From positions 100,854-164,853 of the forward strand of contig JBHLOY010000009.1 in NCBI GenBank assembly GCA_048939995.1: a stretch of 64,000 nucleotides of DNA. Direction: 5' to 3'. Below, piece after piece: positions 23,750 to 35,948 of the stretch. Origin of the DNA: Promethearchaeota archaeon. GTDB taxonomy: Archaea > Asgardarchaeota > Lokiarchaeia > Sigyniarchaeales > SOKP01. The notes below the pieces were generated by a model. It was not told the DNA's origin, ran no database searches, and saw only the letters and a program-made list of their open reading frames with translations. The translations under genes and the position numbers were made by a program. Numbering within the stretch: the stretch's first letter is position 1; every line of letters starts with the position of its first letter.

Positions 23750-25564
23750 TTATTCAAGTTTAGAAAGAATTATCCTCCGATTAATTTCATCCTTAAAATA
23801 CTCAAGAGATCTTAAATCATTATTAGGAATAGTTTGATTCATTTTTAATATTTCAGCAATGAGATCCCTTCCTAATATGTTCTCAATTGAAATATCTTGT
23901 TTTATGAGCTCTTTCCCCATTTTATAGATGAATAAAATTATTTTAACTAATCCTAGCAACTTTTCACTATTTGTATAATTATCTATCTCATCATAAGCAT
24001 TTTGTATCAAAAATCCATTCCTTATTAAATTCGAAACTAAGAGGATTAATTGTTGATCTTTAGATAAATAATTTACTCCAACTAGTGGTATAAGGCGAGT
24101 AAGATCTTGTTCTTCAGACAAAATTTCATTAACTTTATCTCTGCATTCCATCCAACCAACATTTATCTCTGGCCAATCAATATCTCGTTCATACCACCAC
24201 TTTTCAAGGAATTCTGGATAATGTGAATAAGAATTAAACCAACTTATCGCAGGATAATGCTTTAGATATGCTAATTTTGGATCCAATGCTAAAAAGACTT
24301 GTACGACTCTTTTAGTTATTGCGGTAACCGGCTCATTGAAATCACCTGCTGGCGGTGATATTGTCGCAATAATAGTTATAGAACCACTCCTTTCAAGTGA
24401 TTCACCATTTCCTAATAATTCAACAAGTCCTGCGCGCTCATAGAAACTGAAAAGTTTAGATTGTAAGTAAGATGGGTATCCTTCCTCAGCAGGCATTTCT
24501 CCTAATAAGCCAGAAATTTCTCTCAAAGATTCTGCCCATCGAGATGTACTATCTGCTAAAACAACTACATTATATCCCATATCTCGATAATACTCTGCAA
24601 TGGTAACACCTGAGAATAAACTAGCTTCCCGTGCAGAAACAGGCATATTTGAAGTATTAGCAATAAGGATAGTTCGTTCTAAGATAGGACGGTTTGTGTT
24701 TGAATCCATTATCTCTGAAAATTGTTTGAGAGTATTGGCGATCTCATTACCAGGTTCTCCACATCCTATAAAAACAATTATATCAGCATCAGACCACTTT
24801 GCTAAAGATTGTTGTAAGACGGTTTTACCTGTTCCGAAACCTCCAGGAATAGCCGTAGTACCACCTTTTGCAATTGGAAATAGTAAATCAATCACTCTAA
24901 TCCCTGTGATTAGAGGTTCAGTTGGCTGTTTTTTTTTTTTATACGGTCGTTTCTTTGAAACAGGCCATTTTTGTATCATGGGATAAGATTTTACATTATT
25001 TTCATTTTTTAACTTATATATCTCTTCAACTATTGTATAATCCCCTTCTTGGGCTATAAAAACTATATTTCCAGAAGTATTAGGCGGAACCATGATTTTA
25101 TGCGTTATTGAAGGGGTTTCTTCTACAACTCCTATTATATCTCCACCATTCACGTGAGTATTTAATTCCTTTAATGGAATAAAGTGCCATTTCTTTGTCC
25201 TTGATAATGCAGGGAAGTTCATACCCCTCTCTAACCACCCTGATTTAAAATTTCTAAAAATTTCTTTTAATGGTCTTTGCATTCCGTCAAATATGTTACT
25301 TAACAATCCAGGTGCCAATTCCATTGAGAGAGGCTCATATAAACTTTCAACTTTTTCATTTAGTTTAATTTTGAAAGTATCTTCAAAACATTGAACAACG
25401 ATGTGGTTTTCATATATTTGTATTACTTCTCCTAATACATTATGATTTAAGATTTTAATAAGATCATGCAATTGAACTTGGGTTTCTAAACCTTTTATTT
25501 TGATTATAGATCCAAAAATCTCAGAAATATATCCAATTTTTCCACTTTCGATTTTACTTTTCAT
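23750..25564 (-). CDS. atpA: Second V/A-type ATPase subunit A paralog, with GCGEPGNE variant
   Basis: Full length (604 aa). P-loop [37 protein letters not shown]. The conserved GCGERGNE reads GCGEPGNE (CCT codon at 24752-24754). Confidence 0.93.
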
Positions 25565-25601: not shown

Positions 25602-26045
25602 TTAACCCATTACTGGCACTCCACAATTTGGACACGTTTTTACAAAATTTGGAATAGTAATTTTGCAATTAGGACATTTTCTAATTATTGGCTTCCTATA
25701 TTTAAAATTTAAGTTAATATCTTTTGTATCCACTGGTTTAAATTCATATGTTTGAGATTGACTTTTAAGGTCTTCTTTATATAGTTCATAATCAGATTTC
25801 TCTCGCCTTTCTCTTTTTGGAAAAAGACGACGATACATTGATTTCGAGATTCCAGTAAGAAGGGGTCCGATAACTATTAATATTAAGAAAATTAGTATGA
25901 TAATGATAATCCAATGCTCTATTGCTAAATCAACTAAAAATATGTAAAGAAAGTAAAGAGATATTAAATAGAATGCAATAAAAATAAAACGAATTATTAT
26001 TCCTCTCTTGCTTAGAACTTTTTTTTTGGTAGATTTCTCTTCCAC
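25602..26045 (-). CDS. Two-TM membrane protein with C-terminal zinc ribbon
   Basis: Two hydrophobic helices, then CPNC-x10-CPNC; GTG start after GAGGT; located inside the ATPase operon. Confidence 0.8.
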   Translation of the reverse strand: MEEKSTKKKVLSKRGIIIRFIFIAFYLISLYFLYIFLVDLAIEHWIIIIILIFLILIVIGPLLTGISKSMYRRLFPKRERREKSDYELYKEDLKSQSQTYEFKPVDTKDINLNFKYRKPIIRKCPNCKITIPNFVKTCPNCGVPVMG

Positions 26046-26067: not shown

Positions 26068-28398
26068 TTAACTTTTAAAATATTTTTGTTCAATATAACT
26101 TATAGCTTCATCAATATCTTTTTTTGCTTTCTCAGGCTCAATTTCTTTTTCTATTTCCTCTGAGATTACATCTTTTTCAAGATGTTCTCGAAATATTATT
26201 TTAGAATAATCATTATCTAAATAAAATGGGAAAAATTCTGTTCCTGTACCTTTGTAAAATTTAAAGAAAAATTCGTAAAAGTGAAGTCGAATTGTATTAA
26301 TAAAGACCAAAATACCTTCCAATAATATTACGATAATATTTCCGAGAATTAACCCTAAAAACTTTAGGATATCAAACCAGATTCCCTCACCTTGAAGTAA
26401 ATTAGAGAGAGCTTGTATAGATATCATTAACGCTATGTGAGCAAGGGCTAATGCTAACAATCGAATATATGATGCTACATTGCTTAATACTGATAAAGCG
26501 GTCTCAAAAGTCTCCATTGTACCTTCTCCCATCAATGCTCCATAGGATTCTTTCTTCAAATAAGATATACCGAATACTTTACCTAACGGTTTTAGTAGAA
26601 TTAATAGAATACCTGGAATAATAACAAGTAAAATTGGAGGTGGTAGCGTTATTGGCCCCCAAAAAGTAAGGAGAGAAGTTGATGATAACCAGACGGTAAG
26701 ATTTATACCATAGGTAAATATTAAGTATGTACCCCCTGTTAATAAACATATTTTTATAAAGGAATTGGAAAAGGCTAAATATTTCTTTGATTGCCTGACG
26801 TAATTAATTAGTTCAAGGAACCACCCTAAATTAATGTGGACCACTCCAATGAAAAGAGCAAATTCAAAAACGACTGTAATATTCGCAATAGGATCAAACA
26901 AACTTACCGGTCCAAGAAATGGTACCGTAATAAAAATTGGTTGCAAAGGTATCCCAAAAATTTGTTCATAACCAAAAAATTCTCCATAAAATAATCCCCC
27001 TAAGACAGCTCCAATCCCGCAATAGAACACTATCCAACTAAATTGACCTGTTTTTTTCTTGCGAAAAAGTATTCCCCCTAAAATGCCAGCAATAATTAAG
27101 ACCAATCCATGACCTATATCTCCAAACATCAATCCAAAGATAAAGGGAAATGTAAAAGCTAAGAAAGGCGTTGGATCAACTTCAGAGTATGAAGGGACTC
27201 CATACATCTTTGTAATTAACTCAAAAGGTCGAATAAACCATGGGTTTCTCATAATTGTTGGAGTTTTAGCTTTTAATTGTTCTTCTGCTTGATCTAGTTG
27301 GTTGGTATCTGTTTTTTGTGGGATATTTTTAAGACTTTCTTTTTCTTTTAATTTCGATTCTAACCGATCTAAATCTTTTACTTCATGAAACCTAGGAATA
27401 TCAAATATATCAATGACAATTTTATTTTTAAATTGGTCTGATAAGAGTTGTTCTACATTTCTTCTTCTTCTTAGAGGGAGAAAAAAGTTAAGAGTTAATC
27501 GTTCTTTTGAGAATTCTTCAAATTGTTGCTCTGCCCAATGATATTCTTCAACATTTTGTACAACTTCATTAAGAGCCGCAAACTTAATCATATTTTGATC
27601 TCGTAATAAATCCCTTTCTTTTTGATATTTTGAGAGTGTTGTATTAATTATATCAATCTCATTATTAATTCGTGAAAAGTTGATTACTTCGGTAGTTAAA
27701 TACTTCTTTAAGATTGGGACTTCTTCAGCATGTATTAGATTTATTCTCTCTCGTAGATCTTCTTCACGATCTCTTGGATATATAATAAAAAAAGTGATTC
27801 TATCTTCTAATCTATATGCATTTGGAAAAAGTTCATCTGTTTGATGAACATTTGGAAATGCGTCGAATTCAAAAAGGCTTTTAAAATTCTCAATGTTCTT
27901 TTTAAATGTAGTAAAGACTTTAAAGTTTAAATTATTAAATTTTGATAAACTATCTCTCGTTAAATTATATTGTTCAAGGAATGTATAGCTAGATTTTATT
28001 ATTTGTATATTTTCCAATTCAATTCTTGCCTTGGCAATATATTTATCTAATTCATTAATTCGATTTGTATAGAAGTTTATTTCTTCTAATGTTTTATTAA
28101 CCAATTCAGGTATATCTCTTACTAAAAATTCAACTTTTTGATTTTGAGCAACTTTTTTTAGTTCCTGAAAATTTGATTCATTAACATTAAGTTTATTAAA
28201 TAATGAATCTAAACCTTGCCTTAGATTTTTAACAATGTTGAAGAATGTATCTTTTTCTTCTCCTTTTTTACCTGAAATAAGTTTTTCTCTAGCTTTAATC
28301 TGAACGTTATTAATCGAAGAAAGTACATTTAAGAGCCTGTCCTTATCATATTTATTTATCCCTACTTTAAATAGGCACATTTCAGTTTTTTTTGTCAT
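26068..28398 (-). CDS. atpI: V/A-type ATPase subunit I (a)
   Basis: PFELITKMYGVPSYSEVDPT, FGLMFGDIGHG, SNVASYIRL (essential Arg), IRLHFYEFF. Confidence 0.95.
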   Translation of the reverse strand: MTKKTEMCLFKVGINKYDKDRLLNVLSSINNVQIKAREKLISGKKGEEKDTFFNIVKNLRQGLDSLFNKLNVNESNFQELKKVAQNQKVEFLVRDIPELVNKTLEEINFYTNRINELDKYIAKARIELENIQIIKSSYTFLEQYNLTRDSLSKFNNLNFKVFTTFKKNIENFKSLFEFDAFPNVHQTDELFPNAYRLEDRITFFIIYPRDREEDLRERINLIHAEEVPILKKYLTTEVINFSRINNEIDIINTTLSKYQKERDLLRDQNMIKFAALNEVVQNVEEYHWAEQQFEEFSKERLTLNFFLPLRRRRNVEQLLSDQFKNKIVIDIFDIPRFHEVKDLDRLESKLKEKESLKNIPQKTDTNQLDQAEEQLKAKTPTIMRNPWFIRPFELITKMYGVPSYSEVDPTPFLAFTFPFIFGLMFGDIGHGLVLIIAGILGGILFRKKKTGQFSWIVFYCGIGAVLGGLFYGEFFGYEQIFGIPLQPIFITVPFLGPVSLFDPIANITVVFEFALFIGVVHINLGWFLELINYVRQSKKYLAFSNSFIKICLLTGGTYLIFTYGINLTVWLSSTSLLTFWGPITLPPPILLVIIPGILLILLKPLGKVFGISYLKKESYGALMGEGTMETFETALSVLSNVASYIRLLALALAHIALMISIQALSNLLQGEGIWFDILKFLGLILGNIIVILLEGILVFINTIRLHFYEFFFKFYKGTGTEFFPFYLDNDYSKIIFREHLEKDVISEEIEKEIEPEKAKKDIDEAISYIEQKYFKS

Positions 28399-29069
28399 TA
28401 TATTAACCCTCCGGGTTGTTTTATTACCTTTCTCTTAATCAATTCCTTAGTTTTTTTTAATCTTACAAAATTTTCACGATCAAGTTCTTCTAAAATTTCT
28501 CTAATTTTCTTAATATCTGTTGAGAGTAAAGGGATAATTCTATTTTTTAATCCATTGATCCTTCGATTTACTTTTTTAAAGTTTAAAGCTAGAAGGAAAA
28601 AAAAATCCTCAAATTCTGCAAAGTTTATTAAAAATTTGAAAAAATCTTCTAATAAAGGCATCAGCTCATCTATAAAATGACTAGTATTTTCAAAGGAATA
28701 GGCAGGCAGTTTACCGATTCTATTTAAGTCATATTCTAATTGATGGGTTGTTATACCAATATTCTTGATATTAAGGATATTAATTGTTGGATTAAACTGG
28801 ATTTTACTTAAATTACTAATTAATACGAGATCTCTTTTACCCATCTCTTTATATGCCTCATTCATAAAGAATAAAGCTTCTTTATACCATTCAATAAATT
28901 TATTTAATTTTTCTTTATAGTCTATCCAACTAGACTTAATTTGAGTAATCAACTGTTCACGTTTAAATTCTAAGAATTTTTCACCTTTTTTGGCAAGGAT
29001 AAGTTTTTTCTTTAAGCTGATTAAATTTGTTTTTGTGGGTTTAATTTCTCTAAAACTAATGACAAACAC
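28398..29069 (-). CDS. atpD: V/A-type ATPase subunit D
   Basis: IKPTKTNL..LKKKL..AKKG..FLEFKREQL, KKVNRRINGL, LEELDRENFVRLKK. The true start may be ATT at 29060. Confidence 0.93.
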   Translation of the reverse strand: MFVISFREIKPTKTNLISLKKKLILAKKGEKFLEFKREQLITQIKSSWIDYKEKLNKFIEWYKEALFFMNEAYKEMGKRDLVLISNLSKIQFNPTINILNIKNIGITTHQLEYDLNRIGKLPAYSFENTSHFIDELMPLLEDFFKFLINFAEFEDFFFLLALNFKKVNRRINGLKNRIIPLLSTDIKKIREILEELDRENFVRLKKTKELIKRKVIKQPGGLI

Positions 29070-30458
29070 CTATTTTCTATAATACTTATCAATTAATCCT
29101 TGGTGAATTCTAAATAATTGGTTTTGAGACAAATTTGAAAGAACATCCCAAGCAATAGAAAACGTTTCATTAAAAGTACGATTCTCATTTAAACCTTGAT
29201 TTAAGAATTTCTGTTCAAAATCTTCGCCATATTTTAGTAATGCTTTTTGTTCAAAATTCAAACCATCTTCTCCTACAACTGATAATAGATCTCTTGCCTC
29301 AAGCGCATCTGAGTATGAGGCTAACAATTGAGAGCTAAGATCAGCATGATCCTCTCTAGTAGTATTTTTTCCAATTGAATCCTTCATTAATCTTGAGATT
29401 GAGGCCAATACTTCAAATGGAGGATATATTCCTTTTTTATTTAAATCACGATTTAAGACTAATTGTCCTTCGGTTATATAACCAGTAGTGTCAGGGATTG
29501 GATGTGAAATATCATCATTTGGCATCGTTAATATCGGAATCTGAGTTATTGAACCTTTTCTACCTTTTAATTTGCCGGTTCTTTCATAAATTGAAGCTAA
29601 ATCAGAATATAGATATCCGGGATAGCCCTTCCTACTGGGTATTTCTTCCTTTGCAGAGCTTAATTCTCTTAAAGCTTCAGCATAATTCGTAATATCAATT
29701 AATACCACAAGAACTTGCATTTCTTTTTCAAATGCAAAATATTCTGCAGTAGTTAAGGCCACACGGGGAATAATTAACCTTTCCATTATTGGATCGGATG
29801 CAAAATTTATAAAGGAAATAATATTTTGAATATTTCCGCTTTCTCTAAATGCCTTAAAAAAGCTTATAGCATCATCTTCAATGATTCCAATTCCACAAAA
29901 GATTATTAAAAATGGTTCTTCTGTCAATACTTTTGCTTGAGTTACTATCTGTGCTGCTAATTTATTATGTGGCAATCCTTGGGCACTAAAAATAGGTAAT
30001 TTCTGACCTCTAATTAACGTAAAAAGACCATCTATGACAGATATGCCTGTTTGGATAACTTCTGATGGATATTCTCTAGAATAGGGATTAATAGGTGCAC
30101 CATAGATGTCTAGTTCAAGATCAGTAATTATCTCTGTACTTAGAGGTTTTTTAGTATAAATGTCAAACGGTTTTCCTGAAGAGTTAAAAGTTCTTCCAAA
30201 CATATCGCTTTCAGAGATTCTAACTTTAAATGAATCTTCTGTAAAGGATACATTTGAATTTTCACTAGATAAACCTTTTGTATCTTGAAAAACTTCAATT
30301 ACTATAATATCTTCATTCATTTTTACAACTTGGCCTGTTCTAACTGATTTATCTTCGGATTCGATATTTACAATTTCCCCATATTGAACCTGATGTTCAT
30401 TTTTTAAAAAAATTAGCGGACCAATGATTTGTTGGATATTTTTGTACACTATACTCAT
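29070..30458 (-). CDS. atpB: V/A-type ATPase subunit B
   Basis: GPLIF, RGQKLPIFSAQGLPHN, DITNYAEALRE, GYPGYLYSDLASIYER, SISRLM (arginine finger). Confidence 0.96.
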   Translation of the reverse strand: MSIVYKNIQQIIGPLIFLKNEHQVQYGEIVNIESEDKSVRTGQVVKMNEDIIVIEVFQDTKGLSSENSNVSFTEDSFKVRISESDMFGRTFNSSGKPFDIYTKKPLSTEIITDLELDIYGAPINPYSREYPSEVIQTGISVIDGLFTLIRGQKLPIFSAQGLPHNKLAAQIVTQAKVLTEEPFLIIFCGIGIIEDDAISFFKAFRESGNIQNIISFINFASDPIMERLIIPRVALTTAEYFAFEKEMQVLVVLIDITNYAEALRELSSAKEEIPSRKGYPGYLYSDLASIYERTGKLKGRKGSITQIPILTMPNDDISHPIPDTTGYITEGQLVLNRDLNKKGIYPPFEVLASISRLMKDSIGKNTTREDHADLSSQLLASYSDALEARDLLSVVGEDGLNFEQKALLKYGEDFEQKFLNQGLNENRTFNETFSIAWDVLSNLSQNQLFRIHQGLIDKYYRK

Positions 30459-32290
30459 TCTTTCTTGCGTCCTCCGTACATTAACTTTATCGATTGAATA
30501 TCTGCTAATAATCGATTTTTAATTTCTTCTATTTTGTTAAATTCATCATTAGGGATATTTTGACTAATTCTTCTTAAGTCATTTAGAACTTCAAAAGACT
30601 TTATATCTTCTAAAAGATACCCTGAAGTTAAAAGTTCTTTAGCTTTATTGTAAAAAAGCAAAATTAATTTTATGTGGCTTAGTAATTTATTTCTATTAGT
30701 ATAATTATCAATACTGTCAAAGGCGTTCTGAATTAGAAAACTTTCTCTAATCAATTTTCCAATAAAGAGGATCAATTGCTGTTCCTCAGGTAAATTTTCC
30801 TCTCCAATTAATTGGACAATATTCTTTAATTCATTTTCTTTTGACAGAATTGTATTTGTCTCAGCTCTACATTGATACCAGTCGAGATCAATTTCTGGCC
30901 AATGAATATCTCGTTCATACCACCATTGAGAAATATACTCTAAATAATTTGAATAAGAACTCAGCCAATTAATAGCAGGATAATGTTTCGAATAAGCAAG
31001 ATTAGCATCTAATGCCCAAAATGCTTGAACAAATCGTTTAGTTGTAGCAGTTACAGGTTCACTAAAATCACCAGCTGGAGGCGAAACTGAACCTATTATA
31101 CTCAAGGATCCAATTCTTCTTTTTTCCGTATGATTTCCTATGGCTTCGACTTTACCAGCTCTCTCATAAAAGCTTGATATTTTAGAAGGTAAATATGCTG
31201 GATAACCCTCCTCTGCAGGCATTTCTTCTAATAATCCAGAAATTTCTCTTAAAGATTCTGCCCATCTTGAAGTGCTATCTGCTAAAACTGCAACATCATA
31301 TCCCATATCTCGATAGTATTCTGCGATAGTAACTCCAGAGAATATACTTGCTTCTCTGGCTGAAACCGGCATGTTTGAGGTATTTGCTATCAATACAATT
31401 CTTTCCATCAAAGGGCGTCCACTTTTAGGATCAACTATTTTTAAAAATTCTTTTAATGCATCTGCTATCTCATTTCCTCTCTCCCCGCAACCAACAAATA
31501 CAATTATATCCGCATCAGACCATTTTGCTAAGGATTGTTGAATAACTGTTTTACCAGTGCCAAAACCTCCTGGTACGGCCACTGTTCCTCCTTTTGCTAT
31601 AGGAAAAAGTAAATCAATTATTCTTATTCCCGTAATTAGAGGTTCTTCCAATGGGATTCTTTCTTTATATGGTCGACTTATTGTAATCGGCCATTTTTGC
31701 ACCATATTTAATGCATATTCCTTTGAATTTTCCTTTAATCTGTAAATTTCATCCATTATAGTGTATTCACCCTCATCAACTATAAATGATAATATTCCCG
31801 AATAATTCATTGGAACTAAGATTCTATGCTCTATTAATGGGGTTTCTTGAACAGTACCAACTATATCACCTGGTACTAACTTTTCTCCTACTTTTTTTTG
31901 AGGAACAAAGTGCCATTTACGTGATCTTGATAGAGGGGCTAATTCAATACCACGTTGTAAAAAAGCACTATCTAATTTTTTATCAACCATATTTAAAGGT
32001 CTTTGAATTCCATCAAATACACTAGTAAGGAGTCCTGGACCTAATTCCATTGATAATGGCTCTTTAAGATTAGTAACTTCTTGATTTAATTTTAAGTTAT
32101 AAGTGTTTTCATAACATTGAATAACCACATGATTATTGTAGATTTGTATAACTTCACCTAAAATATTTTGTTCTGAAACTTTTATTAAATCATGTAACTT
32201 AACTTTTTTCTCAATACCTTTTACCTCAATTAAGGATCCATTAATAGCGGTAATGTGACCAATTTTAAGTGGTTTTTTAGAGTTGATCAT
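30455..32290 (-). CDS. atpA: V/A-type ATPase catalytic subunit A
   Basis: [48 protein letters not shown]; all catalytic motifs canonical. Confidence 0.97.
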   Translation of the reverse strand: MINSKKPLKIGHITAINGSLIEVKGIEKKVKLHDLIKVSEQNILGEVIQIYNNHVVIQCYENTYNLKLNQEVTNLKEPLSMELGPGLLTSVFDGIQRPLNMVDKKLDSAFLQRGIELAPLSRSRKWHFVPQKKVGEKLVPGDIVGTVQETPLIEHRILVPMNYSGILSFIVDEGEYTIMDEIYRLKENSKEYALNMVQKWPITISRPYKERIPLEEPLITGIRIIDLLFPIAKGGTVAVPGGFGTGKTVIQQSLAKWSDADIIVFVGCGERGNEIADALKEFLKIVDPKSGRPLMERIVLIANTSNMPVSAREASIFSGVTIAEYYRDMGYDVAVLADSTSRWAESLREISGLLEEMPAEEGYPAYLPSKISSFYERAGKVEAIGNHTEKRRIGSLSIIGSVSPPAGDFSEPVTATTKRFVQAFWALDANLAYSKHYPAINWLSSYSNYLEYISQWWYERDIHWPEIDLDWYQCRAETNTILSKENELKNIVQLIGEENLPEEQQLILFIGKLIRESFLIQNAFDSIDNYTNRNKLLSHIKLILLFYNKAKELLTSGYLLEDIKSFEVLNDLRRISQNIPNDEFNKIEEIKNRLLADIQSIKLMYGGRKKE

Positions 32291-32999
32291 ATGTCTTCAA
32301 ATACACCTCTATTTCTTTTTTTTTTAGTTTTATATCCCTCTCAAAATCATCTTGTAGTTTTACTATTTCTGTTTCAGAAAAGATACTTGATAAGTTTTGT
32401 TCGATCTTAACCAAATTTTTAGCTAATAAATTATCAATAGTATAGTTATAGGTAATTTTATTATCTCCAATAATTACCTTAAATCCCCCAATAAAATCGT
32501 CCTCAGCAGAATTGAGATCGATTTTGTTTTTGAATAGAGGTTTGATATTAGACCCAATATTTTTGACATGATCAAAGTCTCGTTCATTTAATAAAATGAG
32601 AACTTTTGGAGGTTTATCAATAATATGAACTGAATCTTTTATCCTCGCAATCAAGTAATTCAGATAATTAGAATAATTTTCTGATATATTACTTCGAATA
32701 TGTTCTAGAATTCCCCGATTTAAATCCTTTAGCAACTTGTTTTTTAATTTTAATACTAATTCTTTAGCTTGAATTAAATTCGAAGATAATGTTTTATTCA
32801 AAAACTGATTATACATCTCTATAAATTGATTTTTGATCTTCAAAGAATTGTTTTCAATTTTCTTTAAATAACTCTTTTTTATCTCTGCTTTTTGATAAAG
32901 CATTTTTTGGTTAACTTCTTTTATCTGATCTTCAGCTTTATCAATTACGTAAACTCCTAGCTTACCAAATTGTTCCTTAATATCCTTTTCTTCTGAAAT
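32277..32999 (-). CDS. atpE: V/A-type ATPase subunit E, probable ATT start
   Basis: C-terminal FIGGFKV...YNYTIDNL; lies between F and A. The frame is open upstream of ATG 32903 to ATT 32999 (preceded by GAGGGT), which restores the N-terminal stator helix SEEKDIKEQFGKLGVYVIDKAEDQIKE. Confidence 0.82.
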   Translation of the reverse strand: MSEEKDIKEQFGKLGVYVIDKAEDQIKEVNQKMLYQKAEIKKSYLKKIENNSLKIKNQFIEMYNQFLNKTLSSNLIQAKELVLKLKNKLLKDLNRGILEHIRSNISENYSNYLNYLIARIKDSVHIIDKPPKVLILLNERDFDHVKNIGSNIKPLFKNKIDLNSAEDDFIGGFKVIIGDNKITYNYTIDNLLAKNLVKIEQNLSSIFSETEIVKLQDDFERDIKLKKKEIEVYLKTYDQL

Positions 33000-33014
33000 C
33001 TTACCCTCAACGTC

Positions 33015-33335
33015 CTATTTTATAATTTGTCCTATAGATTTAAAAATTTCGTCTAGAAAAACTACCTTTTCTTCGAGTCGATCTTTAAATATGTTCGGAA
33101 GAAAAAATAGTAATGGTTTTTCTCTACTTAATTTATGATCAATCAATTGTGCTATATCATCTTCTAATACATCCAGTGCTACAATTACCAAGCCTATAGA
33201 TGAATCCTCCTTCAAGGCATTAAATTCTTTTAAAAATAGCTCTGGTTTATTGAGCACCTTTCCTTCGATTCCTAATAAACCCATCATTAAGACTGTTTCT
33301 TCATCCCCAATTACAAAGATTTTCTGTTCAGGCAT
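33015..33335 (-). CDS. atpF: V/A-type ATPase subunit F
   Basis: KIFVIGDEETVLMMGLLGIEG...IGLVIV...IFKSIG. Confidence 0.92.
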   Translation of the reverse strand: MPEQKIFVIGDEETVLMMGLLGIEGKVLNKPELFLKEFNALKEDSSIGLVIVALDVLEDDIAQLIDHKLSREKPLLFFLPNIFKDRLEEKVVFLDEIFKSIGQIIK

Positions 33336-33645
33336 TAAAGTCCAACTCTAAGTTAGTGATAATTTGATCTATTATTCTTTTTTTATTTTGTTCATAATTC
33401 GATTCATAATTTTGAATAATACTTGCCAACTTCTTTTGAAATTCATTAATTTTTTTATTAACATCTTTCCTAATGGATTTTAAAGCGTCATTAACTAATT
33501 CTTGTTTCTTTTGTATAGACTCACTTAATGCTTTTTCACTTTCAGCTCTTAAATCTTCAATTTCCTTTAGATTATCATTTTTAGACTTTTCTATCAACTT
33601 ATCATAAATATCTTCAATTTCAGAAACCCATTCAAAAATCTTCAT
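33328..33645 (-). CDS. V/A-type ATPase subunit G/H (peripheral stalk)
   Basis: 105-aa charged coiled coil inside the operon, overlapping the atpF start; the only missing subunit of this size. Confidence 0.7.
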   Translation of the reverse strand: MKIFEWVSEIEDIYDKLIEKSKNDNLKEIEDLRAESEKALSESIQKKQELVNDALKSIRKDVNKKINEFQKKLASIIQNYESNYEQNKKRIIDQIITNLELDFNA

Positions 33646-33649
33646 TTTA

Positions 33650-34711
33650 CTATTTTAACCTCTCATACTTTTCGTGAATTATTCTAATTACATTTGGCAT
33701 TATATTAAATTTAATCTCCTTTTCTTTTTTGATTATTAGTTCTAGTATTTTATATATCGTAAAATATTCAAAATCGTCAATTTTTAACTGAAATTTTTTA
33801 AAATAATAATTTTGGTATAATCCCTCGAAAGACCATCTTAAATGTCTTTTACTTATCACGATGGGTACAAATAATTCCTTTAACTCTTTTGAAGAATTTA
33901 AATATACTTCTAATGTTGAAATAAAATCGTCAATATTACCTGAATTCAAAAGGATTTCAATTTTATTTGGATTTAAGAATAAATATTGATTGACTAAAAG
34001 TTGGGAAGTTAAATTTTTGTCAAAATTATTGATAATCGCTCGTGAAATCATTCTTAAATTATATACTTCCGTCGAATAGGCAATATATAACGATATCATA
34101 GCACTTTCTTTTTTGTCATATATGGGTGTTGTCATAATCAGATTTTTATAAAATAATTTATCTAAAAAAGCCTCTAAAATAAATATTTCATTGTTATTTT
34201 TAAAATATAAAATACCTTCACGAACGGCTTTATTATACCTTGAATTTTTCAAATAAAGTTGGATTTCATCTAGTTCATCAATTTCAATTAAATCATTGAT
34301 AAAATCTGAATGTTCTAAATATTCCTCAACTAAAAAATTAATTCTTTTGGATTTTTCACCTTTACTTAAACCTATTATAGACCCTAAGATGATTTGTTTA
34401 ATATTAGAAATTTCATATTTCACAAATAAACTTCTTAAAAAGAGTCTCATATTTTCTGGTGAGAATTGTAAGATTTTTCCCATCAATTTAATTAAAATGT
34501 GGAAAAGAGCTTGTTCAATCTCTATTATAGTATAATCTTTAATATTTATTTCGGGATAATAAGGACGTATAAATTCAACAAACTCCTCAATACCACTGAT
34601 TTCTTTTAACTTTGGCAAAATATTTTCTTCAATAATTAATTTTCTTAAAAAATTAATTTTTATGTAAGTATAAACATATGAAGGGATTAATGTACTCGTA
34701 TGCAACACCAA
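33650..34711 (-). CDS. atpC: V/A-type ATPase subunit C (d)
   Basis: 353 aa, helical; YVYTYIKI, KYEISNIKQII, LEAFLDKLFY, EVYNL, KEKEI patterns; operon position. Confidence 0.82.
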   Translation of the reverse strand: MVLHTSTLIPSYVYTYIKINFLRKLIIEENILPKLKEISGIEEFVEFIRPYYPEINIKDYTIIEIEQALFHILIKLMGKILQFSPENMRLFLRSLFVKYEISNIKQIILGSIIGLSKGEKSKRINFLVEEYLEHSDFINDLIEIDELDEIQLYLKNSRYNKAVREGILYFKNNNEIFILEAFLDKLFYKNLIMTTPIYDKKESAMISLYIAYSTEVYNLRMISRAIINNFDKNLTSQLLVNQYLFLNPNKIEILLNSGNIDDFISTLEVYLNSSKELKELFVPIVISKRHLRWSFEGLYQNYYFKKFQLKIDDFEYFTIYKILELIIKKEKEIKFNIMPNVIRIIHEKYERLK

Positions 34712-34763: not shown

Positions 34764-35144
34764 TTATGCGGGTGGGGTAGGAATTTTTGTCCATAATAGT
34801 ATACCAACGATAAGACCATAAACGGCTAAGGCTTCAGCTAATGCTACAACTAAAAAAGCTTTGAAAAAAGATTCTTCGCGCTCTGCTAGTGATGATATTG
34901 CAGCAGTTCCAACAGTTTTAATAGCTAAGGCACTTCCCAGTACAGAAGCACCAACGGAAACTGCTGCTGAAATAGCTAACATTGCTGATGTAACTGAGTT
35001 ATAATAATAATAATTATCATCTGTTGGTTGAGCGCCTACTAATCTTATTAATCCATTTACCGAGAAAAAAACTGAAAATACTAGAATTATTTGAAACAAG
35101 CCAAGTAGTATAAAAAATTTCTTTTTTCCATTCATTTTTACCAC
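34764..35144 (-). CDS. atpK: V/A-type ATPase proteolipid subunit K (c)
   Basis: Single hairpin with GTAAISSLAE and ALAEALAVYG (ion-binding Glu), preceded by a signal-peptide-like segment. Confidence 0.93.
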   Translation of the reverse strand: MVKMNGKKKFFILLGLFQIILVFSVFFSVNGLIRLVGAQPTDDNYYYYNSVTSAMLAISAAVSVGASVLGSALAIKTVGTAAISSLAEREESFFKAFLVVALAEALAVYGLIVGILLWTKIPTPPA

Positions 35145-35294: not shown

Positions 35295-35948
35295 TTACTG
35301 ATAAAGAATCACTCTTATTATATCAGCAATATCATGCATTCTATCGGCTAATTGTTCTAATAATACAATACTATCTCTTAATCTTAATAATAATCTAATA
35401 TCGAGTTCATCATTGGAAGTAGAATATAGGTAATCGAGAAATTGTCGATAAATTGCATCAATATCATTTTCGATTTCATGGATCTTCACTGTATTCTCAT
35501 ATACCTTATCTCGGGCATCTCTAAGATTTTTAATAGTTTGTTTCAATATATCTGCCATTTCCATAATCTGATTTATTAATTTGTAGTAACGTTTTTTAAT
35601 TTCATCAAACTTTTTACCTTTTGGATGAATCTTATCAAGCATATCTACAAATTCGAGAGGGTAATTAAGGACATTGTCCATTCTTAAGATTAAGGCGATA
35701 TAATCTCCTAAACCTTGAGCTTCGGCTTCAGAAAAGTTTTGTATAAGTCTAATCTTATATTCATCTGCTTCTTCTTCAGAGAGTTGCATTTTACTCTTTT
35801 TTTTTTGCAAACTTTCCTTATTTTTTTCATAATCTTCTGCCCAGGTATTATAATACACTCCCATATCGCTAAGAACATCATACATAATCCTTGAATGTTC
35901 GACGAGTAAACTAATAATTTCCTCCTTTGTCTTACTATTCACTGCCAT
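35295..35948 (-). CDS. DUF47/PhoU-like phosphate transport regulator
   Basis: Two helical repeats: EEEADEYK...LILRMDNV and IHEIENDIDAIYR...LEQLADRMHDIAD. Confidence 0.85.
   Translation of the reverse strand: MAVNSKTKEEIISLLVEHSRIMYDVLSDMGVYYNTWAEDYEKNKESLQKKKSKMQLSEEEADEYKIRLIQNFSEAEAQGLGDYIALILRMDNVLNYPLEFVDMLDKIHPKGKKFDEIKKRYYKLINQIMEMADILKQTIKNLRDARDKVYENTVKIHEIENDIDAIYRQFLDYLYSTSNDELDIRLLLRLRDSIVLLEQLADRMHDIADIIRVILYQ

What the first reader, a model, noticed from the sequence alone, without database searches (positions are those of the whole stretch)
23750..25564. Second full-length ATPase subunit A with the catalytic Arg replaced by Pro
Seen: the operon encodes two A subunits but one B. 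Both A copies share an unusual Trp-rich segment (WWYERDIHWPEIDLDW / [16 protein letters not shown]), which suggests a lineage-specific duplication. The distal copy is intact over 604 codons with P-loop and catalytic Glu retained, but reads GCGEPGNE where the proximal copy reads GCGERGNE. Established: this Arg, adjacent to the catalytic Glu, coordinates nucleotide phosphate in F1-beta and V1-A and is needed for turnover. Inference: this is a maintained nucleotide-binding pseudo-enzyme that could enter the A3B3 ring as a brake against ATP hydrolysis in a very low-energy organism, or act as an assembly factor or alternative non-catalytic subunit.
Basis: partly seen in the sequence, partly recalled or inferred. 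Interest (0 to 1): 0.8.

Follow-up and report, generated by a model that had tools for sequence, protein, structure and literature searches.

The report
Arginine-less spare ATPase motor subunit
One family of Asgard archaea keeps, under strong selection, a second copy of the motor subunit of its rotary ATPase in which the arginine that grips phosphate is always proline; it most likely slips into the enzyme head as a dead subunit that stops ATP being burned, but no experiment has tested this.

Summary
Confirmed. A2 (23750-25564, minus strand) ends the operon K-C-H-F-E-A1-B-D-I-hyp-A2 and reads GCGEPGNE (CCT, 24752-24754). This is no error. The motif occurs in 80 of 135 genomes of this Lokiarchaeia family and in 0 of 265 other Asgard genomes. 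All 63 aligned A2 have Pro (all four codons); all 93 A1 have Arg. dN/dS is 0.13 for A2 and 0.11 for A1. A2 keeps the P-loop, catalytic Glu, adenine pocket and B-facing residues. It also fixed I316L, F420V/L/I and S434L and lost acid in the rotor-facing loop. In one genus, apparent gene conversion homogenised A1 and A2 but spared these sites. A2 was gained or lost about seven times, and this genome probably re-acquired it laterally. The equivalent F1 mutant binds ADP but not Pi and is about 2000-fold slower, and one dead site stops F1. Best reading (about 45%): an optional, dominant-negative head subunit that brakes ATP hydrolysis. The five family genomes tested lack redox-driven ion pumps. Expression and incorporation are untested. 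No paper was found; earlier agents of this scan reported the same gene in other genomes.

The parts
23750..25564 (-). A2: second, Pro271-bearing A/V-ATPase subunit A (604 aa), last gene of the operon
   Evidence: all four subunit-A Pfam domains over their cut-offs
24752..24754 (-). Pro271 codon CCT, replacing the phosphate-binding Arg (E. hirae A-R262, E. coli beta-R182); first residue of helix 271-284 in the model
24755..24757 (-). Catalytic Glu270, kept in 63/63 A2
24821..24844 (-). P-loop GGFGTGKT, kept (positions 241-247 invariant in A2)
24617..24619 (-). Leu316: Leu in 63/63 A2, Ile in 93/93 A1
24305..24307 (-). Val420: Phe in 93/93 A1, Val/Leu/Ile in all A2
24263..24265 (-). Leu434: Leu in 62/63 A2, mostly Ser in A1; beside the adenine pocket, at the modelled B interface
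24734..24736 (-). Asn277: Asp in 92/93 A1, Asn in 53/63 A2; at the modelled B interface
24053..24079 (-). DELSEED-like rotor-facing loop (496-504); mean charge -1.5 in A2 against -3.5 in A1 (E498 mostly K)
   Evidence: equivalence to DELSEED from own knowledge
24152..24199 (-). Trp-rich segment (W456-W471) containing a family-specific insertion, shared with A1
25602..26045 (-). hyp: 147-aa two-helix membrane protein with a C-terminal CxxC-CxxC zinc ribbon; operon-linked but also present where A2 is absent
26068..28398 (-). Subunit I (a)
   Evidence: gene order conserved
28398..29069 (-). Subunit D (central rotor)
29070..30458 (-). Single subunit B, arginine finger R356 kept (107/107)
30455..32290 (-). 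A1: canonical catalytic subunit A, GCGERGNE (Arg codon at 31478-31480)
32277..34711 (-). Subunits C(d), H(G), F and E
   Evidence: assigned by position and sequence features; order conserved
34764..35144 (-). Subunit K(c): leader plus one hairpin with one Glu, no evident Na+ motif
   Evidence: ion reading from own knowledge

Best explanation
A2 is a pseudo-catalytic third head subunit. Shown: it arose once, by duplication of A within this Lokiarchaeia family, and is kept under purifying selection with a fixed set of changes (R271P, I316L, F420V/L/I, S434L, mostly D277N and a less acidic rotor-facing loop). It is optional. Inferred from F1/V1 biochemistry: without the Arg it still binds MgADP but not Pi or the gamma-phosphate tightly, so it barely turns over. 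Inferred: it assembles with the single B in place of A1 in a fraction of A3B3 heads. Because the three sites work in sequence, one such subunit stalls ATP-driven rotation. Where tested, these cells have no redox-driven ion pump, only a membrane pyrophosphatase and this ATPase, so the ATPase can drain ATP. A2 would then be a dominant-negative brake whose dose sets how many heads can hydrolyse.
For: Conservation and selection. One origin: the C-terminal tree without diagnostic sites puts 26 A2 in one clade, support 83. Genus g12: A1 and A2 share 58-89% of fourfold sites (other genomes, median 36-42%), yet A2 keeps P271, L316, V420, L434 and K498. The N-terminal half of g12 A1 groups with g12 A2 (support 99), inside the A2 part of the tree, so an A2-type crown appears to serve in a catalytic subunit. 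The 35 B-facing positions of the nucleotide domain have entropy 0.18 in A2 against 0.72 for the rest of that domain. The A2+B model scored 0.62 against a best control of 0.29; the mark was reached by 58 of 80 solved and 2 of 110 mismatched pairs; runs agree in at least 85% of contacts; partner pLDDT at least 83. This is a textbook pair, so the pass shows likeness only. E. coli beta-R182Q: 0.020 against 42 units, ADP binding kept, Pi binding and synthesis lost (PMC3268026). One dead site of three stops F1 hydrolysis (PMC4415626). No complex I/Mrp/Ech-type, Rnf, COX1 or OadB pump, but an H+-PPase-family gene, in five family genomes. The whole operon is missing from an intact locus in G158.
Against: No expression, incorporation or activity data. 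A2 appears co-transcribed with A1, and across 61 genomes its ribosome-binding signal and codon use are not weaker than those of A1. At equal amounts and random assembly only about 12% of heads would be all-A1, which is costly unless A2 is dosed by a mechanism not seen here. Glu270 is invariant in A2, which a purely dead subunit would not obviously need. A dead site should also hinder synthesis. B shows no clear A2-linked changes, and A2-negative sister genomes have the same pump inventory, so the selective trigger is unexplained.
Confidence: 0.45

Rival explanations
1. A2 works outside the finished motor: an assembly chaperone, a sink that holds B in inactive A2-B dimers, or a free ADP/ATP sensor.
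For: The C-terminal, rotor-facing part is the most relaxed region, and its loop lost acid residues. In two g17 genomes A2 stands alone, far from the operon. This reading avoids the stoichiometry problem.
Against: The crown appears interchangeable with that of A1. Central-cavity and subunit-interface residues 342-362 remain 84-100% conserved. Close relatives assemble the enzyme without A2, so it is not a required chaperone.
Confidence: 0.22
2. A2 is a slow or re-tuned but active isoform: L316, L434 and N277 compensate for the lost Arg, giving heads with altered kinetics or affinity for some growth state.
For: Glu270, Lys247, Asp338, Arg342 and the adenine pocket are all kept. Pro sits at the first turn of a helix, where it need not distort the fold. 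The co-fixed changes cluster around the site.
Against: No new basic residue is fixed in A2 to replace the Arg. Even beta-R182K loses more than 99% of activity. No genome whose operon was read in full has A2 as its only A.
Confidence: 0.15
3. Gear shift or ratchet: a head with one A2 cannot run on ATP but can be driven by ion flow past the idle site. It would make two ATP per turn instead of three, and so work at a lower proton-motive force, for example one fed by the membrane pyrophosphatase.
For: The R182-type lesion removes Pi and ATP binding but not ADP binding. The rotor-facing loop is less acidic, as for a loosely coupled subunit. The c subunit has one Glu per hairpin, as in synthases. 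A PPase-family pump is present.
Against: No precedent found. Synthesis by hybrid heads is untested, and the energy threshold per 120-degree step may not fall. The ion pumped by the PPase is uncertain (motif reading K-type; PMC7997004 lists Na+ for other Loki).
Confidence: 0.13
4. Sequencing error, young pseudogene or neutral duplicate.
For: The gene is often lost (about 7 state changes) and evolves somewhat faster than A1.
Against: 80 genomes, four Pro codons, dN/dS 0.13, no stops in the listed matches. Losses are mostly clean deletions with no remnant.
Confidence: 0.02

Closest known systems
Catalytic subunit A of A/V-type rotary ATPases (P. horikoshii 1VDZ/3M4Y, T. thermophilus 3A5C/7VAI, E. 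hirae 3VR2)
   Same: Full four-domain architecture, P-loop, catalytic Glu, Walker B Asp, adenine pocket; E about 1e-174 to 1e-157.
   Different: Arg after the catalytic Glu is Pro. It coexists with an intact A1, is optional, and carries further fixed changes.
Non-catalytic head subunits (B of A/V-type, alpha of F-type)
   Same: A paralog of the catalytic subunit that lost a catalytic residue and was kept; the ancient event is discussed in bioRxiv 10.64898/2026.10.01.756066.
   Different: B lost the P-loop and alpha lost the Glu; both supply the arginine finger and are obligatory. A2 lost the Arg, keeps Glu and P-loop, has no arginine finger and would sit in an A position.
Engineered dead-site F1 (E. 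coli beta-R182Q/K; TF1 hybrids with one beta-E190Q)
   Same: Same residue lost (R182); the same dominant-negative logic is proposed (PMC3268026, PMC4415626).
   Different: Those are laboratory mutants of F-type enzymes; A2 is a natural, selected paralog of an A/V-type enzyme.
Hydrolysis inhibitors of rotary ATPases (IF1, epsilon, zeta; yeast V1 subunit H; ADP inhibition) - from own knowledge
   Same: Proposed purpose: stop wasteful ATP hydrolysis.
   Different: These are small accessory proteins, domains or kinetic states, not a pseudo-enzyme copy of the catalytic subunit.

Membership tests
A/V-ATPase subunit A (catalytic) | Beta-barrel, barrel-sandwich insert, nucleotide-binding and C-terminal domains | tested here: met
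   PF02874, PF16886, PF00006 and PF22919 all over cut-off
A/V-ATPase subunit A (catalytic) | Walker A GxxxxGKT, Walker B Asp, catalytic Glu | tested here: met
   P-loop 241-247, E270, D338 and R342 at 100% in A2
A/V-ATPase subunit A (catalytic) | Arg after the catalytic Glu (GER) | tested here: not met
   Pro in 63/63 A2
A/V-ATPase subunit A (catalytic) | Adenine pocket aromatic and QN residues | tested here: met
   Y437 90%, P438 100%, Q521 100%
A/V-ATPase subunit A (catalytic) | Assembles with B into A3B3 | tested here: inconclusive
   Model passes by likeness (0.62 against control 0.29); interface residues conserved; no experiment
A/V-ATPase subunit A (catalytic) | ATP hydrolysis or synthesis coupled to rotation of D | not testable with these tools
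   Needs biochemistry
Non-catalytic B/alpha-type subunit | Supplies the arginine finger (SLSRLM-type motif) | tested here: not met
   A2 consensus W.NSYSNY has no Arg there; B keeps R356
Non-catalytic B/alpha-type subunit | Loss of the catalytic Glu or of the P-loop; no barrel-sandwich insert | tested here: not met
   All retained
Pseudoenzyme paralog | Intact gene under purifying selection with a catalytic residue fixed in an inactive state beside an active paralog | tested here: met
Pseudoenzyme paralog | Measured loss of activity and a regulatory effect on the active paralog | not testable with these tools
   Inferred only from F1 mutants

The most novel reading that the evidence does not exclude
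A2 is a true third kind of head subunit that gives rotary ATPases with only two working sites (A1-A1-A2 with B3). Such a head could not run as an ATP-burning pump but could be driven in the synthesis direction at a higher ion/ATP ratio. The ratio would be changed through the head rather than the c-ring, in close relatives of eukaryotes.
Probability: 0.13. Interest if true: 0.92.

Novelty: new variant of a known kind. Interest (0 to 1): 0.68.

Why it matters
Rotary ATPase heads are taken to have two kinds of subunit and three equivalent working sites. A natural, selected, catalytically crippled paralog of the catalytic subunit would be a mode of control I found in no paper searched (a dominant-negative pseudo-enzyme inside the ring). 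It would also be a recent replay of the ancient catalytic/non-catalytic split. It is directly testable, because A3B3D heads can be expressed and assayed, and it bears on how slow-growing Asgard archaea manage ATP and membrane potential. The natural comparisons (sister genomes with and without A2, a converted pair differing at few sites) narrow which residues to test.

Tried and rejected
Lower expression of A2 read from sequence: this genome's A2 has no SD-like signal, but across 61 genomes A2 signals are not weaker than those of A1 and codon bias is equal (the anti-SD was assumed, as my pattern found no 16S end). I rejected this as evidence. An internal promoter was not supported: sigma-70-type hits are at chance level and the scan does not cover archaeal promoters. 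hyp as a dedicated A2 partner was rejected: it persists in A2-negative genomes and in a sister family with no A2-linked change. Co-evolution of B, D, E, F or K with A2: no clear signal. A2 replacing B was rejected (no arginine finger). The A1-specific C-terminal GGRKK-type tail is probably the ribosome-binding site of B rather than a protein feature. ATPase absence in G022, G076 and G088 is inconclusive, because the neighbouring endA was not found either. Ten literature searches, including the literal motif, found no description of A2. The single-chain AlphaFold model is only moderate (pLDDT 71) and was used only for secondary structure.

Full report
Observation. The minus strand carries a complete A/V-type ATPase operon in the order K-C-H-F-E-A1-B-D-I, then a 147-aa membrane zinc-ribbon gene (hyp) and a second A gene, A2 (23750-25564), which converges on the tRNA splicing endonuclease gene. 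A1 reads GCGERGNE (AGA) and A2 reads GCGEPGNE (CCT at 24752-24754). They are 59% identical, and the assembly (98% complete) holds only these two A genes and one B. Related loci are titled Promethearchaeota (Lokiarchaeia, Asgard archaea).

Distribution. A DNA pattern for CGEPG(N/S)E matched 80 of 135 genomes of the window's family, in 7 of its 13 genera, and 0 of 265 other Asgard genomes; the reversed control matched none. In a scan of one genome per prokaryotic species, every hit that was an ATPase came from Asgard-labelled or unnamed archaeal records with A2-like sequence, and bacterial hits were unrelated frames. In the loci fetched, A2 almost always follows hyp at the end of the operon, even after the flanks were rearranged; in two genomes of genus g17 it stands alone elsewhere. 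The Trp-rich segment is a family-wide insertion present in A1 and A2 and absent from outgroup families.

Selection. All 63 aligned A2 have Pro271, with all four Pro codons, and all 93 A1 have Arg. Over 18 close pairs, median dN/dS is 0.129 for A2, 0.114 for A1 and 0.058 for B. A2 keeps the P-loop, Glu270, Asp338, Arg342, the EEGYP loop and the adenine pocket. Pro is not the only change. I316L is fixed (63/63 against 93/93 Ile), F420 is always Val, Leu or Ile, S434L is in 62/63, D277N is in 53/63, and E498 is mostly Lys. The loop 496-504, which by my own knowledge corresponds to the rotor-facing DELSEED loop of F1, has mean charge -1.5 in A2 against -3.5 in A1. In the AlphaFold model Pro271 starts helix 271-284, so the fold need not be disturbed (moderate model).

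History. With the diagnostic columns removed, the C-terminal tree puts all 26 sampled A2 in one clade (support 83, not starred), consistent with one duplication. Genus g12 is a natural experiment. Its A1 and A2 share 58-89% of fourfold-degenerate sites along the whole gene, against medians of 36-42% elsewhere, which I read as gene conversion. Yet its A2 still has P271, L316, V420, L434 and K498 and stays A2-like from about residue 250 onward. In the tree of residues 9-248 the g12 A1 groups with g12 A2 (support 99) inside the A2 part of the tree, although the AU test did not reject a single A2 clade there (p = 0.275). Inference: the N-terminal assembly half is interchangeable, and what makes A2 different lies at the catalytic loop and in the C-terminal half. 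On a B+I tree, A2 presence changes at least 7 times, and most losses are clean, with hyp and endA abutting. This genome's nearest relatives lack A2. Its A2 is closer to that of G149 than its neighbouring genes are: 58% against 40% fourfold identity (p = 4e-5; p = 0.03 against A1 alone), and it is the most extreme of 1770 pairs for A2 minus A1 identity. It was therefore probably regained laterally into its old slot. A2 is thus useful enough to be kept and moved, but it is optional.

What the change does. By alignment Arg271 is P. horikoshii R264, hence E. hirae A-R262, which contacts the terminal phosphate of ATP (PMC6371843, PMC9336149). By the shared GER motif it is E. coli beta-R182 (own knowledge). 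Beta-R182Q has 0.020 against 42 units of ATPase, keeps MgADP binding, and loses high-affinity MgATP binding, Pi binding, the transition state and ATP synthesis. Even R182K keeps under 1% of activity (PMC3268026). In thermophilic F1 a single dead site of three stops steady-state hydrolysis (PMC4415626). No new basic residue is fixed in A2 to replace the Arg, and A2 has no arginine finger, so it cannot stand in for B.

Does it bind B? A model of A2 with B scored 0.62 against a best control of 0.29. The mark was reached by 58 of 80 solved complexes and 2 of 110 mismatched pairs, the runs agree in at least 85% of contacts, and partner pLDDT is at least 83. A-B is a solved, textbook pair, so this shows likeness only. 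The modelled interface is the catalytic one and includes P271, N277 and L434. A separate check on sequence conservation: the 35 B-facing positions of the nucleotide domain have entropy 0.18 in A2 against 0.72 for the rest of the domain (A1: 0.09 and 0.50), and 51 of 60 interface positions share the A1 consensus. Some of these positions are also constrained by nucleotide binding.

Energetic context. In five family genomes (three with A2, two without) I found no complex I/Mrp/Ech-type, Rnf, heme-copper oxidase or decarboxylase pump, but all five have a membrane pyrophosphatase. In G158 the flanking genes phoU and endA lie 5.8 kb apart on one contig with unrelated genes between them, and no ATPase subunit was found in that genome (92% complete). 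In G072 the only A has lost the catalytic Glu. So the ATPase seems not to be indispensable in this family and may be a cost, which fits a brake. It does not explain why some members need A2 and their sisters do not.

Mechanism and rivals. Most likely (0.45), A2 is an ADP-binding, phosphate-blind subunit that replaces A1 in some heads and stalls ATP-driven rotation. The weak point is dose. A2 appears to be co-transcribed and shows no family-wide sign of weaker translation, and equal amounts would leave about 12% of heads all-A1. Rivals are a role outside the finished motor (0.22), a slow compensated isoform (0.15), a two-site 'gear shift' that permits synthesis at lower force while blocking hydrolysis (0.13), and neutral or error (0.02).

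Novelty. A2 belongs to the subunit A family by fold and descent but fails the GER feature, and it is not a B/alpha-type subunit. Public databases annotate its relatives simply as subunit A. Ten literature searches found no description. Earlier agents of this scan reported the same paralog from other genomes. Their notes are not independent support, and I had reached this reading before opening them. I rate it a new variant of a known kind, interest 0.68.

Noticed in passing
L271:4420-11463 (G158): The whole rotary ATPase operon is absent from an intact phoU...endA locus, replaced by four unrelated genes, and no PF00006 or subunit I was found in this 92% complete genome: an Asgard archaeon that may have no rotary ATPase.
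   Followed up: partly
L256:9121-10977 (G072): The only subunit A of this genome reads GAVGTGKT and GCGIRGNE (catalytic Glu replaced by Ile), with a divergent subunit I and no hyp detected: possibly an independently inactivated ATPase, or an assembly error.
   Followed up: partly
L258:1154-3031 and L259:8072-9925 (G068, G069): A2 stands alone, away from the operon, near an alpha/beta hydrolase gene, with CCGEPGNE and all diagnostic residues kept.
   Followed up: partly
window 25602-26045: Membrane hairpin plus zinc-ribbon protein with no Pfam match, kept after subunit I across this family and a sister family whether or not A2 is present: a candidate extra ATPase subunit.
   Followed up: partly
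L263, L264, L068 (G089, G064, G034): A1 of 1130-1155 aa, interrupted just after the P-loop, consistent with an intein.
   Followed up: no
L033 and L036 (G014, G015): The operon genes are 92-98% identical at fourfold sites (I 89%) but A2 and endA only 76-79%, suggesting a recombination breakpoint near hyp.
   Followed up: no
G000:C7:128608-130581: Membrane pyrophosphatase with a GNTAKA motif (K-type, read from own knowledge as K+-independent and H+-pumping), whereas PMC7997004 lists Na+-PPases for other Loki genomes.
   Followed up: partly
L236, L263, L238 (G085, G089, G110): An unrelated ORF of about 335 aa on the opposite strand occupies the A2 slot after hyp.
   Followed up: no
L056 and L057 (G031): A genome of another family has two separate ATPase operons, both with Arg-type A; one A groups with this family's A1.
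   Followed up: no
window 35295-35948: A DUF47/PhoU-like gene is often directly upstream of K in this family and in sister families.
   Followed up: no
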